This document shows, piece after piece, positions 5,406 to 37,364 of a DNA stretch of 64,000 nt. The position numbers were made by a program, and so were the translations under genes. Source of the DNA: a virus (Duplodnaviria; Heunggongvirae; Uroviricota; Caudoviricetes); IMG/VR virus record IMGVR_UViG_3300011904_000029, positions 6,312 through 70,311 of that record. One strand, written 5' to 3'. Within the stretch, counting starts at the first letter, position 1. Each line of letters begins with the position of its first letter. The notes below the pieces were generated by a model that worked only from the letters and a program-made list of their open reading frames with translations, was not told the origin of the DNA and did no database searches.

Positions 5406-6468
5406 GAGTATAGTTAATTGCGTTAGCTTGGAGAAAATCTGTTCTTGTTACAATTTCATCTTCTCCTCCTGTTCTCTTTTTGCTTCCATATGTAGCAATC
5501 CATCTTGACTTTAATTCTTGGTTTTCAGGATAAGGTTCTTCGAGTCCTGCGTTTCTACAGATTAAGTTGGCTAGATATTCCACGTAATCATGATATTCTT
5601 TAATGGATAAAGTATCTATTCCTTCAAAAATGTAACTAGCCCATACTTTTTCTCGTTTAACAGCCTCTTTTATATAATCCATAACATAATTATAATTATC
5701 TTTTGTGGCTAACTGCGGCTCTTCTTTCATTAGAATTTGAATCAGCATTCCATAAAAAGTCGAGTGCATATTTTCGTCAGTCCGAATCATAGAAATTAAG
5801 TTATTAGAGCCAATCATTTTTTGATCCCTTGCCAGAGAGTGGAAATAAACAAATCCCCCACTAAAATAAATTCCCTCTAAGACAAGGTTAGCTACGATTC
5901 CATAAAGAATATCTTGAAGTACCTCATTAGAAACTCCACCTTCATCTTGTTCAGCCATATATATCTTCGCAGCATCGACCATTTTTTGAATCGGATCAAT
6001 TACAAGTTGATTCCTATACACTAATTCAGGAATATTTCTTGTAAATTCAAATGCTTGCTCCTTCTCTTGTTGATTTAATACAGTGGACGTTAAGTATTGA
6101 TAACTTCGATTATGCAATTGTTCAAATGATGCAATCATAGAAATTACCGATCTAACTGATGAATCGGTGCATAAATAACCTAAAACAAAATTAAAGTCTG
6201 TTGCAATAGAATCTAACCAGTTTAATTTACCTGATATAATGTTATATACTTGTCTTTCTCTTGGCGTAAGTTTTTCTCTATACTCCTCAATATCCTTAGA
6301 CAGTTTCACCTCATCTTCTATCCAGTACTCTGCAAATAAAGACTTATTAAAATCGAGCATTGTAGGATACTTGATATTATCCCAATCTCGTATCCCACTT
6401 GATTTCCCCCCAAACACTTTTGTTGCTACGTTGCTTGCTTCTCCATCGTAAATCCGAAAGTTTGCCAT
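5377..6468 (-). CDS. nrdF: ribonucleotide reductase class Ib beta subunit
   Basis: 363 aa; diiron ligand region LVLEGIYFSGGF...IRTDENMHSTFYG, acidic C-terminus ...ESGEDFDL. Confidence 0.85.
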   Translation of the reverse strand: MANFRIYDGEASNVATKVFGGKSSGIRDWDNIKYPTMLDFNKSLFAEYWIEDEVKLSKDIEEYREKLTPRERQVYNIISGKLNWLDSIATDFNFVLGYLCTDSSVRSVISMIASFEQLHNRSYQYLTSTVLNQQEKEQAFEFTRNIPELVYRNQLVIDPIQKMVDAAKIYMAEQDEGGVSNEVLQDILYGIVANLVLEGIYFSGGFVYFHSLARDQKMIGSNNLISMIRTDENMHSTFYGMLIQILMKEEPQLATKDNYNYVMDYIKEAVKREKVWASYIFEGIDTLSIKEYHDYVEYLANLICRNAGLEEPYPENQELKSRWIATYGSKKRTGGEDEIVTRTDFLQANAINYTHESGEDFDL

Positions 6469-6488: not shown

Positions 6489-7889
6489 TTATGCTTCACA
6501 CATAATACAGTCTTCGTCACGCTCATATTCTTCTGTGTATGTATAATAAATAGTCTTAAGTTGCTTCTTCCATGCTCCAAGATCTAATCTTAGAAGTTCT
6601 GAGCCTTTGATTGATTTAGGCACGTGCATATTATGACTTACTCCCTGATCTATGAATTTTTGTGCTGCTGAAATTACATTAATTGCCCACATTTCATCCA
6701 TTTCAAATCCTGACTTATAGAACCATTTTGTTTGATTATTGTAGTTTGAAGGAACATAAATTACGTTCAGCCCAGACTTTTCTTCCCGATATATGACCTC
6801 ATATGGAGGGTCAATTGAAGGTGAAGAGTTCATAATCAATGAGTTTGAGCTTGTAGGCGCAATTGCGCTTAAATAAGCATTTCTCATTCCTTTGCTTGCT
6901 AAATCACGAAGTTCACTCCATTCATCAGAAACAAAACCTCGCTTATCAAAGAACTCTCCGGTTTGCCAGTCAGAACCTTCGAATAATGGATACGATCCTT
7001 TTTCTTGTGCTAATTTAGCTGAAGCTCTAATCATTGCTTTTAAATACTGTTTAAAAATGTCTTCAGTAAACTTAGACGCTTCTTCAGACTCCCATCTAAT
7101 ACCTCTAGAAGTCATTAGTGTAACCAATCCCATAGACCCTGCACCTACTGCTCTATAAAGCTTGTTAGTGTGCGTGGCTTGAGGTACAACAGTCCGATTC
7201 AGTGAAATTACGTTATCTAACATACGAAATTGGATATCAACAACACGTTGCAAATCAACATCCTTAGATTCATCAAATACATTATTCAAGACTAAAGATG
7301 AGAGGTTGCAAGTTACTAAACCATCTCCTATAACTTTCGTAACAACAAAGCCATCTTCATCTAAATTCTCAGATATACACCTATCAACTTCCATATTTTG
7401 TATGACCTCACTACAGAGGTTTGATCCAAAAGGCATCCCAACATGTGCATTCGGGTTCATCCTTGCTGCTGTATCATGGAAGTATAAATAAGGAGTACCA
7501 CCAGTTTTTCTTGATGTAAAAATAGACTTGTAAATATCTGTAGCATTAACCACTCGTTTAATTTCAAACGACATATCTTTTTCTGCCTTGCGATACCAAT
7601 AGGTAAAGGCATGATCTTCTTCATTCGGTTCTTCATCAGCCATTAACTTTTTCTTATCATAAAGACGATTCAAGTCAACACCCATCTTCTTCCTGAATTC
7701 ATAAGGATCAAAGATTGTCCAGTTTTGCTTAGATTCTAATCTTCTCATGTACTCATCAGGAAGAGTAACTGCTGTTTTAATTGAATGCGCCCTAAGTTCT
7801 TGAGATCCTGTTTTTAAGCGTAAGTCTAAAAAATCAAAAATATCATAATGCCATACAGGTAGGTATAATGCGATTCCTGCAACTCTTGA
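6489..7889 (-). CDS. nrdE: ribonucleotide reductase class Ib alpha subunit, exon 2
   Basis: contains AGIALYLPVWHYDIFDFLDLR, SNLCSEV active-site motif, C-terminal CxxC tail; exon start placed after intron terminal G at 7890. Confidence 0.85.
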   Translation of the reverse strand, partial: SRVAGIALYLPVWHYDIFDFLDLRLKTGSQELRAHSIKTAVTLPDEYMRRLESKQNWTIFDPYEFRKKMGVDLNRLYDKKKLMADEEPNEEDHAFTYWYRKAEKDMSFEIKRVVNATDIYKSIFTSRKTGGTPYLYFHDTAARMNPNAHVGMPFGSNLCSEVIQNMEVDRCISENLDEDGFVVTKVIGDGLVTCNLSSLVLNNVFDESKDVDLQRVVDIQFRMLDNVISLNRTVVPQATHTNKLYRAVGAGSMGLVTLMTSRGIRWESEEASKFTEDIFKQYLKAMIRASAKLAQEKGSYPLFEGSDWQTGEFFDKRGFVSDEWSELRDLASKGMRNAYLSAIAPTSSNSLIMNSSPSIDPPYEVIYREEKSGLNVIYVPSNYNNQTKWFYKSGFEMDEMWAINVISAAQKFIDQGVSHNMHVPKSIKGSELLRLDLGAWKKQLKTIYYTYTEEYERDEDCIMCEA

Positions 7890-8946
7890 CAAATTTGTTA
7901 CTACCTTATTAAAAGGCGGATAGGTCATTTCTGCCTATCTCTCTATGTCGCCATAGAGTTCAGACTATATCTTCTTGTGCGTGTGGTTATAAAAATTTAT
8001 TTTATATAATATGTATTTCTTTATTATGTAGTTCCATATGACATTCGAAGCATAATGTCTGTAAGTTTTCCTCTTTATTTGCTTCATTAATATCGTCAAA
8101 CTCCTCTATAGGAATTATGTGATGAACATTTAGTGCGTACTTTTCATAACTTTGAGTGTTGCAAATTTGACAAGTATAATTATCTTTTTTGACTTTTCTT
8201 TCTCGTATTCTTGACCACTTACTTCCATATCTATTTGGATTTTCTCTAGAAAACTGTCTATTTACACATCTATTTGAACAATATATTCTTTTATTTGACG
8301 GAACTGTAAAAGAAGGTCTTTCAAATTCCTTTTTGCAACAATAACATATTAATTTAATTGTATTTTGTTCGTTAGCAATATTGATACATTCTTGTGAGCA
8401 ATAGCTTATTTCTTTCCTATCTGCCCAAAACTCTTTATCACATACCTTACAGTTTAAATTATGTTTGTTTTTTCTACATAAATCAGAGCAATAATTACCG
8501 TCTTGTTGTATTCTCTGCTTAGCAATTTCAAACTCTTCTTTGCAATATTTACAATTAACTTTGACTTTTTTTGAGTTAATTGCTCCTAATTTAGCACTAC
8601 ACTTATGTGAGCATGTTCGTTTGGATCGCTCTCTTTTATTTTTTATATTTACTGTAAAAATGCTTTCACATATCTCACATTCCTTATCAACATATTCTTT
8701 TACTCTAGGTATTTATTATTCCTCCCTTGATCGCAACCACACGCACAAGTTTGGTTCGAGTTATAAAATTACTCTTATAACTACTTAGTCGTTGAACCTT
8801 CTACCTGGGAAACCAGGAAGCTCGGCTGCGAATTGCCCGCACTCTTGGGTTTTTAGGGTTCGCCGTGTCATTACTGCACGGTATCCTACCTTGAGATACT
8901 CGGGGTTCCCCGCAATTGACCAATTTTATACTCGGCTCATAAGTTA
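7890..8946 (-). mobile_element. group I intron interrupting nrdE, with embedded HNH endonuclease ORF
   Basis: exon 1 reads ...YVNQLG then stops; exon 2 resumes SRVAGIALYL (conserved YVNQxGxRxGAxAxYL block reconstituted); 5-prime exon end ACUCGGU pairs with internal guide GCCGAGU (U-G at splice site); intron ends with G; GC-rich structured core at 8760-8945. Confidence 0.7.
8002..8712 (-). CDS. intron-encoded HNH homing endonuclease with N-terminal zinc-ribbon repeats
   Basis: 236-codon open frame with C-terminal CQICN...HHIIP...NLQTLCFECHMELH HNH motif; preceded by GGGAGG RBS and TAATAA; no in-frame ATG/GTG/TTG near 5-prime end (first codon ATA). Confidence 0.65.
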   Translation of the reverse strand: MPRVKEYVDKECEICESIFTVNIKNKRERSKRTCSHKCSAKLGAINSKKVKVNCKYCKEEFEIAKQRIQQDGNYCSDLCRKNKHNLNCKVCDKEFWADRKEISYCSQECINIANEQNTIKLICYCCKKEFERPSFTVPSNKRIYCSNRCVNRQFSRENPNRYGSKWSRIRERKVKKDNYTCQICNTQSYEKYALNVHHIIPIEEFDDINEANKEENLQTLCFECHMELHNKEIHII

Positions 8947-9915
8947 ACCGAGTTGATTTACATATTCAGCTAGTACACTACTTAATCGTGATGGATGGAG
9001 AATTCCTGTTGCACGTCCTTTATATCCTCGAATCCATGAACCACTTGCGCGAAGGAACCCTAAATACTTCCCAATTCCTGCACCATTTTGACTAAATCTT
9101 GCTGTTTGTTCTAGGCTATTCATAATACTGATCAAATCATCATCAGGAGTAATAATGTGACATGATGACAATGTTCCGTGAGGCGCACCCGAACTCAGTA
9201 AAGTTGGTGTAGCTAATCCTACATAATGATTAGATAAAGCCCAATATGCTTCTTTTACTAACTCCATTCGCTTGGACTTCTTCTCATCTTTCATAAGATA
9301 GAGAGCAGAGGTTAAGAATCGCTCTTGTGGTAATTCTAAGACCTCGCCATTATAGCCCTTTTTAAGATAAGTATTGTTAAGCATGTAGAGTCCAGCATAG
9401 CTAAATTTTTTATCCTTTTCTTTTTCGATAAACTTTCCTGCTTTATTTAATTCTTTTTCAGTATATTGCTCCGTCAAGCTTTCATCATAAATGCCTTGCT
9501 CAACCATTTGAACAACAAAAGAGTAATAATCACCATAACCATTTTTATAATCAAAGCCCCTATTTTTAGACGCTTGCTTATACATCTTCCTCCTCAAAGT
9601 TGCTGCACTTAAATATGTGAAGTCTGGAGTTGACGGAGATATACAGTCATTTGAAAATCTAATAATCAAATCAAACAACTTGTCTGCCTCAAGTTTTTCC
9701 TTGGAATAAACGTAGTCGAATACATTTGCTCGGATTTTATTTAGAATATCTTTGTCGTATTCTTTCTCTGAATCTGTAATGATTTCATGGAAGAAGCGAT
9801 CAAACCTTTCTTCCATGAAATCTGATTCTTGAATGTGTGATTTTCTATCTTTAGTAATAACCGTCAAACAACTACACCCTTTCAGTCTTAAATTTGGTAA
9901 TAATTTATTTTGCAT
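8947..9915 (-). CDS. nrdE: ribonucleotide reductase class Ib alpha subunit, exon 1
   Basis: ATPTLLSSGAPHGTLSSCHII (radical-transfer Cys loop) and FTYLSAATLRRKMY; ends at 5-prime splice site. Confidence 0.85.
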
Positions 9916-13735: not shown

Positions 13736-14569
13736 TTAATTTAAGCTTATATTTAATTTACTTATGTACTCATTAATTAAATCTCCGACTCTACTAAATT
13801 CTGTGTATGGGATACGTAAAATTGAAATTCCATTTTCTTTGCAGAATGCATCTTTTCTATCATCTCTTTCTAAAACATAATCAAGAGTATTTTTAAAAAG
13901 CTCTCTTTCCTCGAAATGATGTATTCCATCATATTCAATAATAAACAAAACATTTCCATTTATATCATAAATTACAAAATCAAAGAACATTGATTCCCCA
14001 CTATTATTTTTATAATGAACCTCACGATCATATGTCACTCCTAAAGACTCCAAATGGTCAATCACTTCTTTTTCACCTAGAGAAAAATGACAATATTTAC
14101 ATCTTATGCCACTGCGTAAGTTACTAAGGAGCATTTCTGTCCTATGACCATTATTGCACACAACAGTCATTTTTTTGTGTGAGTTGACATATTCCCCTAT
14201 TCTCTTATATCCAATTGACTCAAGAAAACTGTCAACTTCCTTAATTGAAAATCTTTGTTGTACACTACTCTTTTGCAACCAACATTTTCTACATCTAACT
14301 CCTTTTAAAAAATGACTCCAATATATTTCAATTTCATGACCAGCGCTACACTTTACTTTTATTTTGGACTTAGAGTCCTTATAGCTATCTGATATAAGAA
14401 TATAATTTTCTTTTTCTAACTCCTCATTTATAAGATTAATACTCCAATTTGTTTTTCCTTTTCCATTCTTATCTTCTTTTTTGCAACTGGAGCACCTTCT
14501 TCCATTTTTATATTTTTGAAATGTCACTTTCCAATCATGCCCATAAGGGCATCTAACTATAATAGGCAC
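13736..14569 (-). CDS. zinc-ribbon / PD-(D/E)XK-like homing endonuclease paralog (family 2 of 3); annotated from GTG but frame stays open upstream to 14850
   Basis: 277 aa from GTG; C-terminal IEYDGIHHFEE...RDDRKDAFCKENGISILRIPY block shared with 930..2576 and 43898..45400; upstream in-frame extension encodes further CxxC...GH repeats. Confidence 0.5.
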   Translation of the reverse strand: MPIIVRCPYGHDWKVTFQKYKNGRRCSSCKKEDKNGKGKTNWSINLINEELEKENYILISDSYKDSKSKIKVKCSAGHEIEIYWSHFLKGVRCRKCWLQKSSVQQRFSIKEVDSFLESIGYKRIGEYVNSHKKMTVVCNNGHRTEMLLSNLRSGIRCKYCHFSLGEKEVIDHLESLGVTYDREVHYKNNSGESMFFDFVIYDINGNVLFIIEYDGIHHFEERELFKNTLDYVLERDDRKDAFCKENGISILRIPYTEFSRVGDLINEYISKLNISLN

Positions 14570-14853
14570 ATTACTATTGACAAAATCACTGACCAGTTCA
14601 TAGCCATCTTTCTCAAGACTTTTTACAACTTCGTGCTTTGTGATTTTAACCCTATTACTACAACGAGGACACCTTCTTCCTGATTTAAATTTTGAAAAGG
14701 AAGCTTCATATTGATGACCTTTTTCGCATCTTAATACGAGTTTTTCTGTGCTATTTTTATACTCATCGGAAACTAGTCTATACCCGATATTTTCTATATA
14801 CTCTTTAATATCTTTATATGCTAATCTTACCCCATGATTATGACCTTCTCCCT

Positions 14854-15570
14854 TTAATTTAAAATTTCAATTTTTAATTTCTTCCTTCCCCATTGCCAAA
14901 CTCTATCCCTATCAGCAATATATAAGTCTAGTATTTTACCTTTTATTGCTCCTCCACGATCTTGGCAAATTCTTGTCCCTACACTCTCAATGTTAATTTT
15001 TGTACCAAATGGAATATGTGGTGGGCAAGCAATAGTTACGCCTTCTTGAACATAAGCTCCACTTGCAGTTTTTCCATAACCTTTATCACCAGGACTCTTG
15101 CCAGTTGACTCATATCCAGCATGGTAAGCAGTAACTTCATAATAATCAACTTTACCAGATGAGTGACTACTTTTATTTGAGCCACTCATATTAGGGCCTG
15201 TATTGCTTTTACTCGTGTTAACACTACTAATGCTTAATCTATTAACCTTATCTTTTAGCCTATGTATTTCATCATCTTTAACTTTAATCTTTTTCCTTAA
15301 ATCTTCATTATTTTTATTTAATTCATTATTATCTTCCTTTAACCCTTTAATTTCTCCTCGCTGCTTTTCCAATTGACTGTTCTTATTGTAAACCTGATCC
15401 ATCAAAACCCTTTTATTTTTCTCTAGCTCATCAATCTCTTTCTGCTTATCTCCAATTGTCTTATTCATATCGTCCACTTTGTTTTCATATTTTACGACTG
15501 TATTCACATTTGCTCCAATCGCAACAGTTAAAGCAAGAGATATGAATATTGCCTTTTGATTAAAATTCAT
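14854..15570 (-). CDS. secreted coiled-coil protein with C-terminal 3D (MltA-like) cell-wall domain
   Basis: 238 aa; N-terminal signal/TM segment, long Lys/Glu-rich coiled coil, C-terminal YYEVTAYHAGYESTG...GKILDLYIADRD 3D-domain signature. Confidence 0.5.
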   Translation of the reverse strand: MNFNQKAIFISLALTVAIGANVNTVVKYENKVDDMNKTIGDKQKEIDELEKNKRVLMDQVYNKNSQLEKQRGEIKGLKEDNNELNKNNEDLRKKIKVKDDEIHRLKDKVNRLSISSVNTSKSNTGPNMSGSNKSSHSSGKVDYYEVTAYHAGYESTGKSPGDKGYGKTASGAYVQEGVTIACPPHIPFGTKINIESVGTRICQDRGGAIKGKILDLYIADRDRVWQWGRKKLKIEILN

Positions 15571-15671: not shown

Positions 15672-16916
15672 TTATTTAACATTTAATAGTTGCTGAAATA
15701 ATGCTTCACAAACATTAATAACTATACTATTACCAGTCATGCGATAGAGTCTTGTCTTTGACCTGTCTCTGCCTTTGTAAAACTTATCATTTACTGCTTT
15801 TCTTGCCACTTCGTAATCCCTATCAGTGAAACCCATTAGCCTAAACGCCTCCTTGTTGGTCATTTCCCTAATGAACAAATATTCTCCCTCTGCAATCAAG
15901 TCATCCTCACTCTTGACCAACTTGTATCCATCATCTATTTTTACGGCAAGCTTTAGTCCTTTTATTTGAGTTTTTGACACATTTTCTAATAACTCACTCA
16001 GTTCAATAGGATTTTTTTTATTAAAAATAGCTACCATAAAATCCTTAGTCACAGTCGTCACCGTATTACTTACGTCATCTTTTCTAATCTCCAGTTGTTG
16101 AGGCTGTCCCATATAGCTTCTTGTCCTTAAACTACAGCCCTTAACAATTCTTCTGTCCAAGACAACGTTATATGGAACCCCTTTAGACATATTGGCTGTT
16201 AAACATCTACTAGCATCATGGTCAGAGTCACTATGGTGCTCAAAATCCCAATGGGTTCTACCACCTTTTGTTTTTCTATTCATATACTCGATTGCTTTTT
16301 CAGTATGTATATGATTTTTTAATATATCTAAATCTGTTTCCAATTTATCTGAGAGTGATTTTTGATTAGGCATTGGCTCAGGGAAATCGAATCCTTTATC
16401 AATATCTTTACGAATACTAATCATAAAGATGCGCTCTCTATTTTGAGGAATTCCAAAATCACGAGCATTTAATATTTGCCAGTAGTTGTTATATCCTGCT
16501 TTTTCTAATTCCTCTTGCATTTCTTTAAACTCATTTTCAAACTTTTTACTTGTTAGTCCTTTTACATTTTCCATTAATGCATATTTTGGACTCTTAGCTC
16601 GGATAATTCTGAGAGCATCAAAAAACAATATCCCTCTATGATCATCAAACCCCAATTGTTTACCAGCTGCCGACCATGATTGACATGGTGGAGAGTAGCA
16701 AATAACATCGCAATCCGGTACATCTTCAATGTTTAATGTAGTTATATCCGTAGCAGGAAAATTTGTATTATGTATTGAATTATAGGCGGTAATCGCAAAT
16801 TCATCATTTTCAACTGCTAAAACTGTTTCATGTTCTATATTAAGATTTTCAAGTGATTTTTTCCAGGCTCCTATTCCTGCAAATAATTCAACTACTTTTA
16901 ATTTACCAATAAGAAA
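15672..16916 (-). CDS. DNA (cytosine-5)-methyltransferase (full-length frame; 5-prime end lacks canonical start / apparent frameshift)
   Basis: open frame encodes motif I VELFAGIGAW, motif IV CYSPPCQSWS, motif VI ENV (ALMENVKGL), motif VIII QNRERIFMI; ORF-track call 15672..16655 starts after motif IV at an internal TTG. Confidence 0.75.
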   Translation of the reverse strand, partial: FLIGKLKVVELFAGIGAWKKSLENLNIEHETVLAVENDEFAITAYNSIHNTNFPATDITTLNIEDVPDCDVICYSPPCQSWSAAGKQLGFDDHRGILFFDALRIIRAKSPKYALMENVKGLTSKKFENEFKEMQEELEKAGYNNYWQILNARDFGIPQNRERIFMISIRKDIDKGFDFPEPMPNQKSLSDKLETDLDILKNHIHTEKAIEYMNRKTKGGRTHWDFEHHSDSDHDASRCLTANMSKGVPYNVVLDRRIVKGCSLRTRSYMGQPQQLEIRKDDVSNTVTTVTKDFMVAIFNKKNPIELSELLENVSKTQIKGLKLAVKIDDGYKLVKSEDDLIAEGEYLFIREMTNKEAFRLMGFTDRDYEVARKAVNDKFYKGRDRSKTRLYRMTGNSIVINVCEALFQQLLNVK

Positions 16917-16930
16917 TCATCTCCATAATT

Positions 16931-18859: not shown

Positions 18860-21154
18860 TTAAGCTGTCAATAACTCCACCTCTTCTTTTTCCATCCAGT
18901 TTGTTTCCGTTATTTCTAAGTCAACCACAACTGGAACTTTCATCCATTTTACATCTTCCATAATTTTCTTAATATAAGGGAAAATCCACTCCTCTCCTTC
19001 ATATACTAAAAATTGTAGTTCGTCATGAATATTTGCTAATGGAAGTGTTTTGCAATTATGTTTACGTAGGAACTCGCCAATCTCTACTACATAACTTTTT
19101 AATAGATCAGCACAAGAGCCTTGTACTAAATAGTTCCCAACTTTATATGCTTTTTCCGTGTCAGATAAATAATAAACTCTTCCATACATGTTTGTAGCGA
19201 AGTTGTCTTTTTGAATCTTCTTTGAAACTTCTCTTTGGTACCTTGCTACTTCTGGAAAAGTATTAGACCACCCAGTGACAAGAGCGTTTGCTACTTCCAT
19301 TGAAACTTCAAGAGATTCAGAAGCTTTTTTTGCTCCACCACCGTAATTCCGCATAAAGTTAAAAGTTTTTCCGATATTTCTCCAATATCCTCTAAAAGTT
19401 TTCTCGTCAATTATTGGCTTTTCATTATGTGAGTATTTCTTATATTTTTCTTCTGTAACATATTTCAATGCTTCTAATGCATTATGAGTAGTTTCGCTAT
19501 GTACATCGGTTGGAGTCCAATGGGTACCGTCTTCTTGTATCCAAGCAGATTTTCCTTCTGGAGTTTTTTCTGACCACCTTTTACGATCAGCATCATTCTC
19601 AAATTGATACATTTCACCTGTTAAATAATGTTTGCAGTACAGTGGCATATAAGCTCTGCATAAATTTAAATCAGGTTTTCCTAATAACACACTGTAATTG
19701 GCCTGTGCTCTCAATTCAATCTGGGAAAGGTCAAAATAGGCAATTTTACTATATTTTCCACCTCGTACTACAAATGCCCTCCTGGGAGAAAATATCTCCA
19801 TTTCTATTGGTGCTTTCCCTTCCCCATGCTCTTTTTCATATTTTTCTCCTTCTTCAGTTAAAATTCTTTCTTTAGGAAATTGTTGTGCATCTGATCCCAA
19901 TCTTCCTGAGACAGTGTTAAATTGTCCATACTGGGTATAAAAGTTTCCATCATACTCTGCAACTTCCATAATCCTTGAAATATATGTAGATTGCCATTTT
20001 TCTAGACGCCTTAGCCTCGTTATAATTTGTGCAACTCGGTTATCTTTGTGTTTTTTTAAAAACGCCTTATCAGTAGAACCTATTACTTCTCCTGTAATTT
20101 TTTCAAAGTATTCTCCTATTACTTTGCTTTGTGAGACAGTAAAATACTCTCCTACAATTTCCCACATTTCCTCGTATAACTTTTGGATTTCTTGATCACA
20201 TTTTACAAAAGAATCCTGTAAATAATCCATATTTACAGTCATTCCTACACGTTCCATTCTTAATAATTCCATTAACAATTTATTTTCTTGTTGAAAAAGT
20301 TTTTGTTGTTTTCGTTGTAAAATGTTTATATAAAACTTTTCTACAATTTCTAATGTATAAATTCCGTCACTATGAACATATTCCATCATTACATTTTTAT
20401 CTACTTCTGAATAGTTTGCAAAAGGATGTTCTTCCATCCACCTAAAATAAGCTTCTTCTACTTCTTTTGGAACTTCCAGCCATCTTTGCTTACGTTCTTT
20501 TGTAAACATATCCATATCATTGCGTTTTTTGACTTTATAGGCTTCTTTTAATTTCCCTATGCCCCATCCCAGTTCTTTTAATATCTCCTTTAGGATATTT
20601 CGTTTTTGGTCATTTATTTTTCTTAATTCCTTCTTTACCTCAGATTCAAATTCTGCTGCTCTTTCATCAATGTACTTTTCTGAAACCTTTTTTAGCCCTA
20701 ATAAATCTCCACCATCTCTAGCTGAAACTGCATCGAATGAAAATCTACAAATTCCCATTGTGTCAGAAATATTTGAGAGATTGAAAACTTCCTCTTCTGG
20801 TATCCCCCCATTAATCATCATATGGAGATCGAATTTTGTGTTGTGCCCCACTGCCATTTGAAATTTTTTTATAAGCTCTACAACTTGTTTCAATATTTCT
20901 GTACCATGTTCAAATGCAAACACTCTTCCCTTAAAATTTTCCTTTTGTTTTTGTTTAGGTAAAAGCCAGCCAAATACCCACATAAACGGTTTATCTTTTT
21001 TAATATGTAATCCTGTAGTTTCCGAGTCAAATACACAAAGCTTTGGATTATCTTCATAAAAATAATTATTTATTTCACTAAAACTTGTTACCCAGTATTT
21101 CTTATATTTAAATGTTACTTCAGTTTCTAGTTTAGGAGAGATTAATATAACTTT
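18860..21154 (-). CDS. family A DNA polymerase with 3-prime-5-prime exonuclease domain (true start upstream of track ORF; no canonical start codon in frame)
   Basis: motif A YFDLSQIELRAQ, motif B RNIGKTFNFMRNYGGG, motif C LANIHDELQF; Exo II HNTKFDLHMM; Exo I VFDSETTGL lies in frame upstream of the track start 20983, frame open to 21154. Confidence 0.8.
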   Translation of the reverse strand, partial: KVILISPKLETEVTFKYKKYWVTSFSEINNYFYEDNPKLCVFDSETTGLHIKKDKPFMWVFGWLLPKQKQKENFKGRVFAFEHGTEILKQVVELIKKFQMAVGHNTKFDLHMMINGGIPEEEVFNLSNISDTMGICRFSFDAVSARDGGDLLGLKKVSEKYIDERAAEFESEVKKELRKINDQKRNILKEILKELGWGIGKLKEAYKVKKRNDMDMFTKERKQRWLEVPKEVEEAYFRWMEEHPFANYSEVDKNVMMEYVHSDGIYTLEIVEKFYINILQRKQQKLFQQENKLLMELLRMERVGMTVNMDYLQDSFVKCDQEIQKLYEEMWEIVGEYFTVSQSKVIGEYFEKITGEVIGSTDKAFLKKHKDNRVAQIITRLRRLEKWQSTYISRIMEVAEYDGNFYTQYGQFNTVSGRLGSDAQQFPKERILTEEGEKYEKEHGEGKAPIEMEIFSPRRAFVVRGGKYSKIAYFDLSQIELRAQANYSVLLGKPDLNLCRAYMPLYCKHYLTGEMYQFENDADRKRWSEKTPEGKSAWIQEDGTHWTPTDVHSETTHNALEALKYVTEEKYKKYSHNEKPIIDEKTFRGYWRNIGKTFNFMRNYGGGAKKASESLEVSMEVANALVTGWSNTFPEVARYQREVSKKIQKDNFATNMYGRVYYLSDTEKAYKVGNYLVQGSCADLLKSYVVEIGEFLRKHNCKTLPLANIHDELQFLVYEGEEWIFPYIKKIMEDVKWMKVPVVVDLEITETNWMEKEEVELLTA

Positions 21155-21165
21155 TCACCCCTTTA

Positions 21166-36313: not shown

Positions 36314-36963
36314 TTATAGATTTTCTCTTATATAAATCTTATAGTCTTCGTTAAGCCACCTATCTATTTTATTCAATCTATCAGCACTATAAAAATTTAA
36401 TTCTTTTGTATACCAGTCAGTATAGTCATATGCCCACTTTTTACTATTGCAATACCTGCATGAAGGTACACAATTACTTAAATCATTTAATCCGTCATTT
36501 ATAGCATGTTCCATATGTAGATGATGTCCTTGCTCTTGTTTCGCAGTCTCCTCCTCGACTCCACAATAAGCACACTTGTAGTCAAAATACGCCTTGCACC
36601 TTTCCCATTCTAAAGGTGAAATGTCATGCTGCTTATGCATGTGTTTATAATTATACTCCTTGAGTTTTTCTTTATTATCTCTTCTCCATCTTCTTTGATA
36701 TCCCCTCTCTCTCTTTGTTGTTTCCCATATTCTCTATTCTTTTTCTGCCAATCTGGACTAGACATATATCTATTAATCTTATTTTGTACAAGCTCTGCAT
36801 ATCTTTCAGGATTCTCCTCTTGCCATCTCATACTTCTCTCCACAGCACAGTCTTTACAATAGGGCTGATAGTAAATATACTCATCTCCAGACGATTTCTT
36901 TTTATTTTGAGAATAAAATGAGTCTAGGCTTTTTTCTAAGTTGCAATCTGAGCATACTTTCAC
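36314..36963 (-). CDS. HNH endonuclease, apparently split by a frameshift (two overlapping ORFs 36610..36963 and 36314..36640)
   Basis: downstream part has HNH core GHHLHMEH...NCVPSCRYCNSKK; upstream part has zinc finger CSDC...CKDC and W..N.E..Y repeat modules that continue in the other frame; frames switch inside (CT)5CCCC tract at 36702-36714. Confidence 0.5.
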
Positions 36964-37004
36964 CTCTTTGATTTCACCTCCAAAAACACAATATAATTGT
37001 ACTT

Positions 37005-37364
37005 TTATTGATCTAAGTCGTAGTCTTCATAAATGTTATAGGCCACAAAAATTTCAGTATGTTTATTAAAATACTCGTGAGCATTCCAAGCACCAAACAT
37101 AAAGCAGCCATTAAGAAAAGTAACCTCCTGCTCTAGCTTCTCTTCTGTAATTCTATTAGTGCCGATAACGATATCTCCTTCGTATATCTCTTCTCCAAAC
37201 CTGTCTTTTAAACCTGAGAATAGACATACGGTATTGAAATAAACTTCTTGTGAGCCTATGTACGCTTTTCTATCATCGTAATTTATGTAAATTTCACTTC
37301 CATATAGCCAATCATCTTCTTTTACTAATGGCTCGATACTAATACCACGGAATTTAAGCTTCAT
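37005..37364 (-). CDS. hypothetical protein
   Basis: 119-aa ORF. Confidence 0.4.
   Translation of the reverse strand: MKLKFRGISIEPLVKEDDWLYGSEIYINYDDRKAYIGSQEVYFNTVCLFSGLKDRFGEEIYEGDIVIGTNRITEEKLEQEVTFLNGCFMFGAWNAHEYFNKHTEIFVAYNIYEDYDLDQ

What the first reader, a model, noticed from the sequence alone, without database searches (positions are those of the whole stretch)
8002..8712. Intron-encoded HNH endonuclease has no canonical start codon
The HNH ORF is open for 236 codons behind a GGGAGG RBS, but the first codons after TAATAA are ATA CCT AGA...; the nearest ATG is in the +1 frame and terminates after 14 codons. This could be non-AUG initiation, a decaying homing endonuclease, or an indel. 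The ORF caller missed the gene entirely.
Basis: seen in the sequence. Interest (0 to 1): 0.5.

Follow-up and report, generated by a model that had tools for sequence, protein, structure and literature searches.

The report
Intron homing endonuclease starting at ATA
A selfish DNA-cutting gene inside a self-splicing intron of a Bacillus-type phage's ribonucleotide reductase gene is intact but begins with ATA, a weak start codon that the same phage also uses for its DNA polymerase, so it is most likely a deliberately low-expressed gene that gene finders miss.

Summary
On the minus strand, a 236-codon frame (8712..8002) encodes an intact four-zinc-module HNH endonuclease. TAA TAA precedes it, then ATA, with GGGAGG 8 nt upstream. 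There is no in-frame ATG/GTG/TTG until codon 226.

The ORF lies in the P8 loop of a 1057-nt group I intron (8946..7890) that splits nrdE at VNQLG|SR.

The ATA sits exactly where homologues in the same intron have their start: ATG in 7 lineages, TTG in 1, GTG in 1. Two other lineages also have SD+ATA with intact ORFs, and one of these is identical in independent sequencing runs.

In this window the YorL-like DNA polymerase also starts at SD+ATA, where 36/36 homologues start with M/L/V. A C5 methyltransferase starts at SD+ATT.

Best explanation: SD-driven AUA initiation giving attenuated expression. Reported values are about 1-30% of AUG, and Bacillales infC, ccpN and citZ use it. This fits the known down-regulation of intron ORFs.

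Rivals are a freshly start-disabled, decaying endonuclease gene or a base-call error. Two other endonuclease-like genes here are frameshifted.

It is a new member of a known kind, of modest interest. The main lesson concerns annotation.

The parts
8947..9915 (-). nrdE (class Ib ribonucleotide reductase large subunit), exon 1. It ends ...CAA CTC GGT (VNQLG). The likely real start is the SD-supported TTG near 9867.
   Evidence: Conceptual splice gives a 773-aa gapless match to uninterrupted NrdE P0020 (86% identity). SD scan.
7890..8946 (-). Group I intron, 1057 nt. It begins with the in-frame stop TAA and ends ...AAATTTG (omega-G).
   Evidence: Splice junction defined by alignment to intron-less NrdE. 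Same insertion site CAACTCGGT| in L004, L006, L007, L008, L010 and L124.
8930..8936 (-). Internal guide sequence GCCGAGU, which pairs with the exon-1 end ACUCGGU (P1, with U.G at the 5' splice site).
   Evidence: Read. The P1 hairpin appears in the MFE fold.
8767..8927 (-). Intron catalytic core (J3/4-P4-P6-P7 region).
   Evidence: Rfam RF00028 Intron_gpI, 30.4 bits, E=3e-6, model positions 47-158. This is below the gathering score of 50 because the ORF interrupts the model.
8735..8749 (-). P8 5' arm, CUUGUGCGUGUGGUU.
   Evidence: 15-bp perfect complement to 7988-7974. Every homologous intron has a stem in the same place with a different sequence, i.e. covariation.
8721..8726 (-). Shine-Dalgarno GGGAGG, 8 nt upstream of ATA.
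   Evidence: Duplex with the 16S 3' end is -11.8 kcal/mol, within the range of ATG-starting relatives (-8.4 to -22.8).
8710..8712 (-). ATA, the proposed near-cognate initiation codon.
   Evidence: Aligns with the start codon of homologues: ATG in L006/L007, TTG in L002. It is the only SD-supported start candidate in the frame.
8002..8712 (-). HNH homing endonuclease ORF, 236 codons plus TAA, lying in the P8 loop.
   Evidence: AlphaFold model with mean pLDDT 87.
8266..8679 (-). Four tandem CxxC...CxxxC zinc modules (residues 12-149), presumed DNA-recognition array.
   Evidence: Invariant Cys at 12/15/34/38, 54/57/75/79, 88/91/105/109 and 123/126/145/149. Bead-like model with weak zinc-finger-array matches.
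8020..8172 (-). HNH (beta-beta-alpha-metal) nuclease domain, residues 181-231.
   Evidence: Pfam PF01844, E=1.2e-9. Invariant C181, C184, H197, H198, N216, C221, C224, H225. PDB 5h0m (GVE2 HNH): hmmsearch E=1.4e-6 and Foldseek probability 1.00.
7974..7988 (-). P8 3' arm, AACCACACGCACAAG.
7958..7971 (-). Conserved GAUAUAGUCUGAAC (J8/7-P7' strand). It pairs with GUUCAACGACUA at about 8796-8785.
   Evidence: Read. Conserved in all family introns. A 57-nt megablast match to Lysinibacillus phage introns covers it.
6489..7889 (-). nrdE exon 2, beginning TCA AGA GTT (SRVAGIALYLPVWH...).

Best explanation
The ORF is a real, intact homing endonuclease gene: four zinc modules followed by an HNH nuclease. 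It is carried in the P8 loop of a group I intron that interrupts nrdE of an SPbeta-like phage of Bacillaceae.

Its ancestral canonical start codon has been replaced by ATA. Translation most likely still begins there. The strong Shine-Dalgarno sequence (GGGAGG, 8-nt spacer) places the 30S P site on AUA. Initiator tRNA then pairs with the first two bases and tolerates the third-position mismatch. IF3 discriminates against such starts, so output is a small fraction of what AUG would give.

Low output suits an intron-borne endonuclease. A little enzyme is enough for homing, and fewer ribosomes enter the intron RNA that must fold and splice.

Shown here: the gene, the intron, the position of ATA at the family's start, the SD, the recurrence in the family, and the use of ATA/ATT by other genes of this genome.

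Inferred: that AUA is actually decoded as a start here, and that the attenuation is selected rather than merely tolerated.
For: (1) ATA aligns codon-for-codon with the homologues' start. IPRVKE aligns with MPRVKV/MGRVKV. The DNA has ATG in L006/L007 and TTG in L002.

(2) The SD pairing energy is -11.8 kcal/mol with correct spacing. This is inside the range of canonical-start relatives.

(3) Among 12 independent loci of the same intron-borne family, the starts are ATG x7, TTG x1, GTG x1 and ATA x3. The ATA lineages are window, L001 and L124/L125, and they are dispersed on the tree. In L124 the caller's ATG is the Met inside the first CxxC and has no SD (-3.3). An SD-supported ATA lies 10 codons upstream and restores the conserved Cys. 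L124 and L125 are identical over 970 nt from different sequencing runs.

(4) The window protein keeps all 33 invariant and 15 near-invariant family residues and has no internal lesion.

(5) Same genome, DNA polymerase. It has SD AAAGGGGTGA, 6 nt, then ATA (21148-21146). All 36 homologues examined begin at this position with M/L/V, and phage Goe12 has GTG there. The first ATG lies 55 residues further in, beyond the conserved DSETTGL exonuclease motif.

(6) Same genome, C5 methyltransferase. Pfam profile position 2 aligns 4 codons after an SD-supported ATT (16910-16908). Only 6 codons are open upstream and none is canonical.

(7) Five of about 57 minus-strand ORFs of at least 100 codons that lie within the window lack an SD-supported canonical start. 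Three of them are these genes, each with an SD-supported ATA or ATT instead. The other two are the frameshifted endonuclease-like gene opening at 14866 and a flavodoxin-like ORF opening at 5447. Fragments that need no start of their own (nrdE exon 2, and the downstream half of the split HNH gene) are not counted.

(8) Literature.
- In S. aureus, AUA (infC, ccpN, citZ; ccpN also in B. subtilis) and AUU (cvfC1) starts with extended SD give about 10%, and up to 30%, of AUG (PMC13009471).
- AUA gives 1-2% of AUG in E. coli (bioRxiv 10.1101/063800).
- T4 rIIB AUG to AUA causes about 85% reduction, and the HB-3 hydrolase AUA start gives 7.5% (PMC5499595).
- Non-AUG codons and weak ribosome-binding sites are listed ways of down-regulating prokaryotic intron ORFs (PMC3073962).
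Against: There is no direct evidence of translation: no proteomics or ribosome profiling.

Only one assembly of this exact locus could be read, so a G-to-A base error at 8710 is not excluded.

ATG to ATA is the commonest kind of mutation in a 32% GC genome and could simply be the first lesion of a decaying endonuclease gene. Two other endonuclease-like genes in the same window carry frame-disrupting changes, so decay of such genes does occur here.

In L001 an in-frame TTG lies two codons upstream of the ATA and might serve instead.

The date of each ATG to ATA change is unknown. With at most 65% protein identity to the nearest relative, dN/dS on the ATA branches could not be estimated.

No conserved RNA hairpin around the ribosome-binding site was found that would indicate additional regulation.
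Confidence: 0.62

Rival explanations
1. Freshly disabled homing endonuclease. The ATG to ATA transition is a null or near-null mutation and the first step of the usual degeneration of an endonuclease gene once its intron is fixed. The ORF is intact only because too little time has passed for further lesions.
For: Relatives have canonical starts at this codon. The change is a single G-to-A transition in a 32% GC genome. Other endonuclease-like genes in the window are frame-disrupted: 14866..13736 needs a -1 shift right after its ATG, and the free-standing HNH at 37026/36733 is split at (AG)5GGGG. AUA initiates only at about 1-30% of AUG.
Against: Three dispersed lineages would all have to be caught in the brief state of start lost but 230+ codons intact, while none of the 12 loci shows an internal stop or frameshift. 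By inference, a start codon is a far smaller mutational target than roughly 700 nt of ORF. The SD is retained at full strength. The same genome uses ATA for its DNA polymerase and ATT for its methyltransferase, while the core replication genes align full-length with Goe12, so ATA/ATT are not null here.
Confidence: 0.27
2. Sequencing or assembly artefact. The true codon is ATG, and a consensus error in the metagenome-assembled contig produced ATA.
For: The window comes from a single MAG contig and reads could not be inspected. No second copy of this exact locus was found in IMG/VR, JGI metagenomes, GTDB genomes or GenBank phages.
Against: The contig shows no scatter of errors. NrdE aligns without gaps over 773 aa, and the core replication genes align full-length with Goe12. 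Two more ATA/ATT starts occur at SD-supported, homologue-aligned positions in the same contig. Going from GTG (Goe12) to ATA in the polymerase would take two errors. The same SD+ATA arrangement in L124/L125 is reproduced in independent runs. The polymerase ORF truncated for lack of a canonical start is on record from NCBI, JGI and Logan.
Confidence: 0.07
3. Expression by recoding rather than by ATA initiation. Examples are initiation at the +1-frame ATG (8693) followed by a frameshift, or read-through or fusion from upstream sequence.
For: An ATG exists 19 nt downstream in the +1 frame. Another endonuclease-like gene in the window does look as if it needs a -1 shift after ATG GGG TAA.
Against: Homology to relatives starts at codon 1 of the ATA frame, upstream of that ATG. 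The +1 ATG has no SD of its own and its frame stops after 14 codons with no slippery run. The exon-1 frame stops at the first intron triplet (TAA, 8946-8944), and TAA TAA immediately precedes ATA.
Confidence: 0.02

Closest known systems
Group I introns with homing endonuclease ORFs in nrdE/nrdF of Bacillus (pro)phages (SPbeta bnrdE/bnrdF introns) and of the B. cereus group (PMC2504315; Lazarevic et al. recalled from memory)
   Same: Same host gene and same kind of host (SPbeta-like phage of Bacillaceae). The intron begins with an in-frame stop codon, sits in a highly conserved RNR motif, and carries the ORF looped out of a peripheral stem.
   Different: No DNA-level match to any GenBank phage intron beyond a 57-nt core segment. 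The endonuclease family (four zinc modules plus PF01844 HNH, phrog_1271) has no cultured-phage relative above 37% identity. Whether the insertion site equals one of the described nrdE sites (IVS2-5, SPbeta) was not checked.
Translational down-regulation of prokaryotic intron ORFs: non-AUG start codons and weak ribosome-binding sites (Bonocora & Shub 2001; Bechhofer et al. 1994, as cited in PMC3073962), and RBS sequestration for I-TevI (Gibb & Edgell 2010)
   Same: An intron-borne endonuclease ORF with a sub-optimal initiation signal. Across the family the starts are ATG, TTG, GTG and ATA.
   Different: Here the ribosome-binding site is strong and unsequestered and only the codon is weak. The two cited primary papers could not be read, so which non-AUG codons they report is not known to me.
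SD-driven AUA/AUU initiation in Bacillales: S. aureus infC, ccpN (also B. subtilis), citZ and cvfC1 (PMC13009471)
   Same: A near-cognate AUA/AUU start preceded by a strong or extended SD at the proper spacing. The measured effect is attenuation to about 10-30% of AUG. The same architecture occurs at the HNH, polymerase and methyltransferase genes here.
   Different: Those are chromosomal regulatory genes with conserved near-cognate starts. Here the genes are phage genes, and within both the endonuclease and the polymerase families ATA is the exception among canonical starts.
GVE2 HNH endonuclease (PDB 5H0M) and McrA-type HNH nucleases (PF01844)
   Same: The C-terminal beta-beta-alpha-metal domain has CxxC...HH...N...CxxCH. 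Sequence E=1.4e-6 and Foldseek probability 1.00, with 86 aligned columns.
   Different: The GVE2 protein is a small terminase-associated HNH without the four N-terminal zinc modules. The target site and nick-versus-cut chemistry of the window protein are unknown.

Membership tests
Group I intron | Precise removal restores an uninterrupted, conserved host ORF | tested here: met
   Joining 8947 to 7889 gives a 773-aa gapless alignment to intron-less NrdE P0020 (86% identity). The junction is VNQLG|SRVAGIALYL.
Group I intron | P1 formed by the exon end plus internal guide with U.G at the 5' splice site, and a terminal G at the 3' end | tested here: met
   ACUCGGU pairs with GCCGAGU (8936-8930). 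The intron ends ...UUUG (7890).
Group I intron | Conserved catalytic core (P3-P9) recognised by a covariance model | tested here: inconclusive
   RF00028 scores 30.4 bits, E=3e-6, for the 5' half only, below the gathering score of 50 because the ORF splits P8. There was no hit when 7 kb was scanned. P8 shows full covariation across 12 loci.
Group I intron | Self-splicing activity | not testable with these tools
   Needs an in vitro or in vivo splicing assay.
HNH endonuclease (PF01844) | Profile match above the curated cut-off with the H-N-H / zinc-ligand residues present | tested here: met
   38.6 bits against 21.4. Invariant C181, C184, H197, H198, N216, C221, C224, H225. Matches 5h0m by sequence and by fold.
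Homing endonuclease gene (intron-borne, mobile) | ORF in a peripheral intron loop, the same intron plus ORF at the same site in divergent hosts, and intron-less alleles in close relatives | tested here: met
   P8 loop. Identical insertion site in 7 loci. Endonuclease identity is 40-74% while hosts differ. Most NrdE relatives are uninterrupted.
Homing endonuclease gene (intron-borne, mobile) | Site-specific cleavage of the intron-less allele, and homing | not testable with these tools
   Needs protein expression and a cleavage assay on CAACTCGGT|TCAAGAGTT.
Near-cognate (AUA/AUU) SD-driven initiation | No canonical in-frame start upstream of conserved residues, and the near-cognate codon aligned with the homologues' start | tested here: met
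Near-cognate (AUA/AUU) SD-driven initiation | Strong Shine-Dalgarno sequence at functional spacing | tested here: met
   GGGAGG, 8 nt, -11.8 kcal/mol.
Near-cognate (AUA/AUU) SD-driven initiation | Initiating ribosomes or an fMet N-terminus at the codon | not testable with these tools
   Needs retapamulin-type start-site profiling, N-terminal proteomics or reporters.
Decaying (pseudogenised) homing endonuclease | Internal stops, frameshifts or loss of conserved residues | tested here: not met
   236 codons are open and all 48 invariant or near-invariant residues are kept.

The most novel reading that the evidence does not exclude
AUA/AUU initiation may be a systematic, IF3-sensitive expression layer in this SPbeta-like phage lineage. 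At least 3 of about 58 genes in 64 kb use it, including the replicative DNA polymerase and a DNA methyltransferase. The nrdE-intron endonuclease family would then have converged on AUA at least three times as a throttle that protects intron splicing while keeping homing possible. The neighbouring endonuclease-like gene that needs a -1 slip at ATG GGG TAA would be a second kind of throttle.
Probability: 0.3. Interest if true: 0.55.

Novelty: new member of a known kind. Interest (0 to 1): 0.35.

Why it matters
Three points make it worth recording.

(1) Annotation. Standard callers allow only ATG/GTG/TTG. On the public contig they dropped this endonuclease entirely. They also truncated the phage DNA polymerase by 55 residues, removing its exonuclease motif. 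The methyltransferase has no ATG/GTG/TTG before codon 88, downstream of its AdoMet-binding motif I, so it would be cut in the same way. The same happened to the L124 homologue. Surveys of mobile introns and of phage replication genes in low-GC Firmicutes phages will be biased in the same way.

(2) Biology. It adds a natural, recurrent example of AUA initiation behind a strong SD in phages of Bacillales. This mode was only recently shown experimentally for a few chromosomal genes. It also links that mode to the long-standing idea that intron-borne endonucleases must be kept at low translation so as not to disturb splicing.

(3) Testability. It gives a simple system: swap ATA for ATG in an intron ORF and read out both homing and splicing.

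Tried and rejected
- An Rfam scan of 7 kb around the locus found nothing. Only a 261-nt scan recovered the intron core.
- Megablast against GenBank phages gave just a 57-nt intron-core match.
- tblastn against GenBank phages found no endonuclease relative above 37% identity.
- IMG/VR, JGI metagenome and GTDB scans with the family alignment found only distant HNH genes, plus one truncated 77% relative without its start (L092).
- An exact-pattern search for the start region in IMG/VR found nothing. No second copy of this exact locus was therefore available.
- I looked for an RNA hairpin sequestering the SD or start, as for I-TevI. Local folds of 12 loci show no conserved sequestration, and the window's SD is mostly unpaired.
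- I looked for a phage tRNA that might decode AUA as a start. There are no tRNA genes in the window.
- I considered a frameshift from the +1 ATG. It is rejected because homology begins upstream of it, at codon 1.
- I considered genome-wide prophage decay. It is rejected because the core replication genes align full-length with Goe12 and the only two frame disruptions are both in endonuclease-like genes.
- dN/dS on the ATA branches was not attempted, because the nearest relatives are at most 65% identical in protein.
- The primary paper by Bechhofer et al. 1994 was not available.
Full report
**Observation**

On the minus strand the sequence reads ...CAAGGGAGGAATAATAA ATA CCT AGA GTA AAA....
- GGGAGG is at 8726-8721.
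- The 8-nt spacer contains the in-frame TAA TAA.
- ATA is at 8712-8710, and the frame runs 236 codons to TAA at 8004-8002.
- The only in-frame ATG/GTG/TTG is codon 226.
- The nearest ATG (8693-8691) is in the +1 frame and stops after 14 codons.
- Nothing is called here, either by the ORF lister or on the public contig, GCA_032100165.1 DAMDKB010000005.1.
- From the ORF's base composition, a 236-codon open frame has a probability of about 5e-11.

**What the ORF encodes**

- Pfam HNH scores 38.6 bits against a cut-off of 21.4, and phrog_1271 gives 2e-38.
- Sixteen homologues of 223-258 aa align end to end. There are 33 invariant columns: four CxxC...CxxxC modules, then C181, C184, H197, H198, N216, C221, C224 and H225. 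The window protein keeps all of them.
- The AlphaFold model is locally confident (pLDDT 87) and bead-like (pTM 0.43).
- The closest solved relative is the GVE2 phage HNH endonuclease, 5H0M.

**Where it sits**

- The flanking ORFs are the two halves of nrdE. Joining 8947 to 7889 gives a 773-aa gapless match (86% identity) to uninterrupted NrdE proteins, with the junction VNQLG|SRVAGIALYL.
- The 1057-nt insert (8946..7890) starts with the in-frame stop TAA.
- It has an internal guide GCCGAGU that pairs with the exon end ACUCGGU, and it ends in G.
- Its 5' half matches Rfam Intron_gpI at 30.4 bits, E=3e-6. This is below the gathering score because the ORF splits the model.
- The ORF, including its SD, lies in the loop of a 15-bp stem (8749-8735 with 7988-7974). 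The conserved GAUAUAGUCUGAAC follows immediately.
- In all 12 homologous loci a 12-20-bp stem of quite different sequence occupies the same place. This covariation identifies it as P8.
- Every homologue for which flanks were available lies between Ribonuc_red_lgN and lgC ORFs. Where exon 1 is visible, the insertion site is the same, CAACTCGGT|.
- The window itself is an SPbeta-like phage or prophage of Bacillaceae. Its RecJ-like gene and YorL-like polymerase are syntenic with Bacillus phage Goe12 (Spbetavirus), with about 70-73% identity in the polymerase. Its NrdE is about 69% identical to that of Bacillus phages.

**The start codon in relatives**

I read the DNA of 12 independent loci.
- At the position homologous to the window's ATA: L006 and L007 have ATG (MGRVKV, MPRVKV) and L002 has TTG.
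- L003 has GTG, and L004, L005, L010 and L122 have ATG.
- L008 has an SD-supported internal ATG. The caller had over-extended it.
- Two further lineages have ATA.
- L001 reads AAGAAGGGAAGG ttgctt ATA GTA AAA TAT, where its sister L005 reads ATG GTA AAG TAT. An in-frame TTG two codons upstream abuts the SD and cannot be excluded.
- L124/L125 read AAGGTAGGAGAT tgt ATA AAA CAG ... AAT TGT GAA ATG TGT. The caller's ATG is the Met inside the first CxxC and has no SD (-3.3 kcal/mol). No canonical codon exists in the 23 open codons upstream. SD+ATA restores the otherwise near-invariant first Cys.
- L124 and L125 come from different runs and are identical over 970 nt.
- All twelve starts have SD pairing of -8 to -23 kcal/mol at normal spacing. 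The window's value is -11.8.
- The three ATA lineages are scattered on the protein tree.

So the ATA is a substitution of a canonical start, not a frame problem, and the same state has arisen or persisted repeatedly with intact ORFs.

**The rest of the genome**

A scan of all 52 open frames of at least 120 codons showed four with long stretches before the first canonical start. Besides the HNH gene, these are as follows.

(i) The YorL-like DNA polymerase.
- It has SD AAAGGGGTGA, 6 nt, then ATA (21148-21146).
- Phage Goe12 has GTG at exactly this codon.
- 36 of 36 homologues (65-79% identity) begin there with M, L or V.
- The window's own public gene call is 55 residues short and lacks the DSETTGL exonuclease motif.

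(ii) A C5 DNA methyltransferase.
- Pfam profile position 2 aligns to the Lys at 16898.
- Only six codons are open upstream and none is canonical.
- An ATT (16910-16908) follows SD GGAGATGA by 6 nt.

(iii) An endonuclease-like gene, discussed below.

An SD-aware scan covered about 57 minus-strand ORFs of at least 100 codons within the window.
- Five lack an SD-supported canonical start: the three ATA/ATT genes, the frameshifted endonuclease-like gene opening at 14866, and a flavodoxin-like ORF opening at 5447.
- Fragments that need no start of their own, namely nrdE exon 2 and the downstream half of the split HNH gene, are not counted.
- Each of the three ATA/ATT genes has an SD-supported ATA or ATT within two codons of the upstream stop.
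- The core replication genes align full-length with Goe12, so the element is not decaying at large.
- No tRNA gene is present in the window.

**Mechanism**

Published work supports each step.
- In E. coli, AUA initiates at 1-2% of AUG (bioRxiv 10.1101/063800).
- T4 rIIB AUG to AUA lowers translation by about 85%, and an AUA start gave 7.5% for a phage hydrolase (PMC5499595).
- In S. aureus, start-site profiling and reporters show AUA starts for infC, ccpN (conserved in B. subtilis) and citZ, and AUU for cvfC1. All lie behind extended SD motifs and give about 10%, up to 30%, of AUG. IF3 is the discriminating factor (PMC13009471).
- A review of mobile introns lists non-AUG codons and weak ribosome-binding sites among the ways prokaryotic intron ORFs are kept at low translation, so that ribosomes do not disturb intron folding (PMC3073962).

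The window locus has exactly this architecture. My best reading (0.62) is therefore SD-driven AUA initiation giving a low level of a still-functional homing endonuclease.

**Rivals**

*A freshly start-disabled, decaying endonuclease gene (0.27).*
- In its favour, two other endonuclease-like genes in the window are frame-disrupted.
- The gene 14866..13736 has four repeat modules plus a DUF2726-type C-terminus. Its only SD is followed by ATG GGG TAA (14835-14827), and the long ORF is in the -1 frame.
- A free-standing HNH gene is split between 37026..36610 and 36733..36314 at an (AG)5GGGG run.
- Against it: the recurrence of intact ATA copies, the retained SD, and the polymerase and methyltransferase precedents in the same genome.
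- The two views overlap. Even if the change was not selected, AUA behind this SD should still give some protein.

*A base-call error (0.07).* It cannot be excluded without reads. It is unlikely given the clean contig and the three concordant near-cognate starts.

*Recoding from the +1 ATG (0.02).* It is contradicted by homology that begins at codon 1.

**Comparison with what is known, and verdict**

- nrdE group I introns carrying endonuclease genes are well known in Bacillus and its phages (PMC2504315).
- Non-AUG starts of intron ORFs are described.
- AUA/AUU initiation behind strong SDs is now established in Bacillales.

This locus is a new member of those known kinds. New here are an uncultured endonuclease family with recurrent ATA starts, and the use of ATA/ATT by a polymerase and a methyltransferase in the same phage. 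Interest is modest (0.35), and the main practical consequence is for gene calling.

Noticed in passing
window 18860-21164 (-): The YorL-like family A DNA polymerase starts at ATA (21148-21146) behind SD AAAGGGGTGA (21164-21155). 36/36 homologues start at this codon with M/L/V, and Goe12 has GTG. The public gene call (P0139, 707 aa) is truncated by 55 residues and lacks the DSETTGL exonuclease motif.
   Followed up: yes
window 15672-16924 (-): The C5 cytosine DNA methyltransferase has no canonical start before motif I (KVVELFAGIG). An in-frame ATT (16910-16908) follows SD GGAGATGA (16924-16917) by 6 nt. An out-of-frame mini-ORF, ATG GAG ATG ATT TCT TAT TGG TAA, overlaps the site.
   Followed up: partly
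window 13736-14866 (-): An endonuclease-like gene has four GY.LVSD...C..GH...F..G.RC..C repeats (CapR / treble-clef zinc hits) and a DUF2726-type C-terminus. The first canonical start (GTG 14569) would delete 1.5 repeats. The only SD (AAAGGGAGAAGG, 14855-14844) is followed after 8 nt by ATG GGG TAA (14835-14827), and the long ORF is in the -1 frame. This could be a -1 slip on the G run with a stop in the A site, a G4/G5 indel, or decay.
   Followed up: partly
window 36314-37026 (-): A free-standing HNH gene, homologous to one Goe12 ORF (residues 8-93 and 86-213), is split into two overlapping frames (37026..36610 and 36733..36314). The switch lies at an (AG)5GGGG run, about 36712-36699. This is either a slippage-type frameshift or a pseudogene.
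   Followed up: partly
window 9865-9915 (-): The nrdE exon-1 ORF as listed starts at an ATG (9915) without an SD. Homologues align from residue 17, where an SD-supported TTG (about 9867) lies, so the listed N-terminus is probably 16 residues too long.
   Followed up: partly
L004 990-5245: The closest intron-bearing relative of the window's nrdE (exon 2 about 84% identical) carries a second endonuclease ORF (HNH_3/NUMOD4, 190 aa, 1958-2530) upstream of the homologous HNH ORF. This suggests two introns, or a twin arrangement, in one nrdE gene.
   Followed up: no
L008 3001-3747 and L001 140-907: Public gene calls for two homologues are over-extended upstream into intron structural sequence. The frame happens to be open, and the callers took the first ATG/TTG rather than the SD-supported start.
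   Followed up: yes
window 8002-8712 (-) and family ORFs: Family ORFs contain few internal ATG/GTG/TTG codons (1-8 per roughly 235 codons). The window copy has just one, the conserved Met of the HNH motif. It is unclear whether this is chance, AT bias or avoidance of internal starts.
   Followed up: partly
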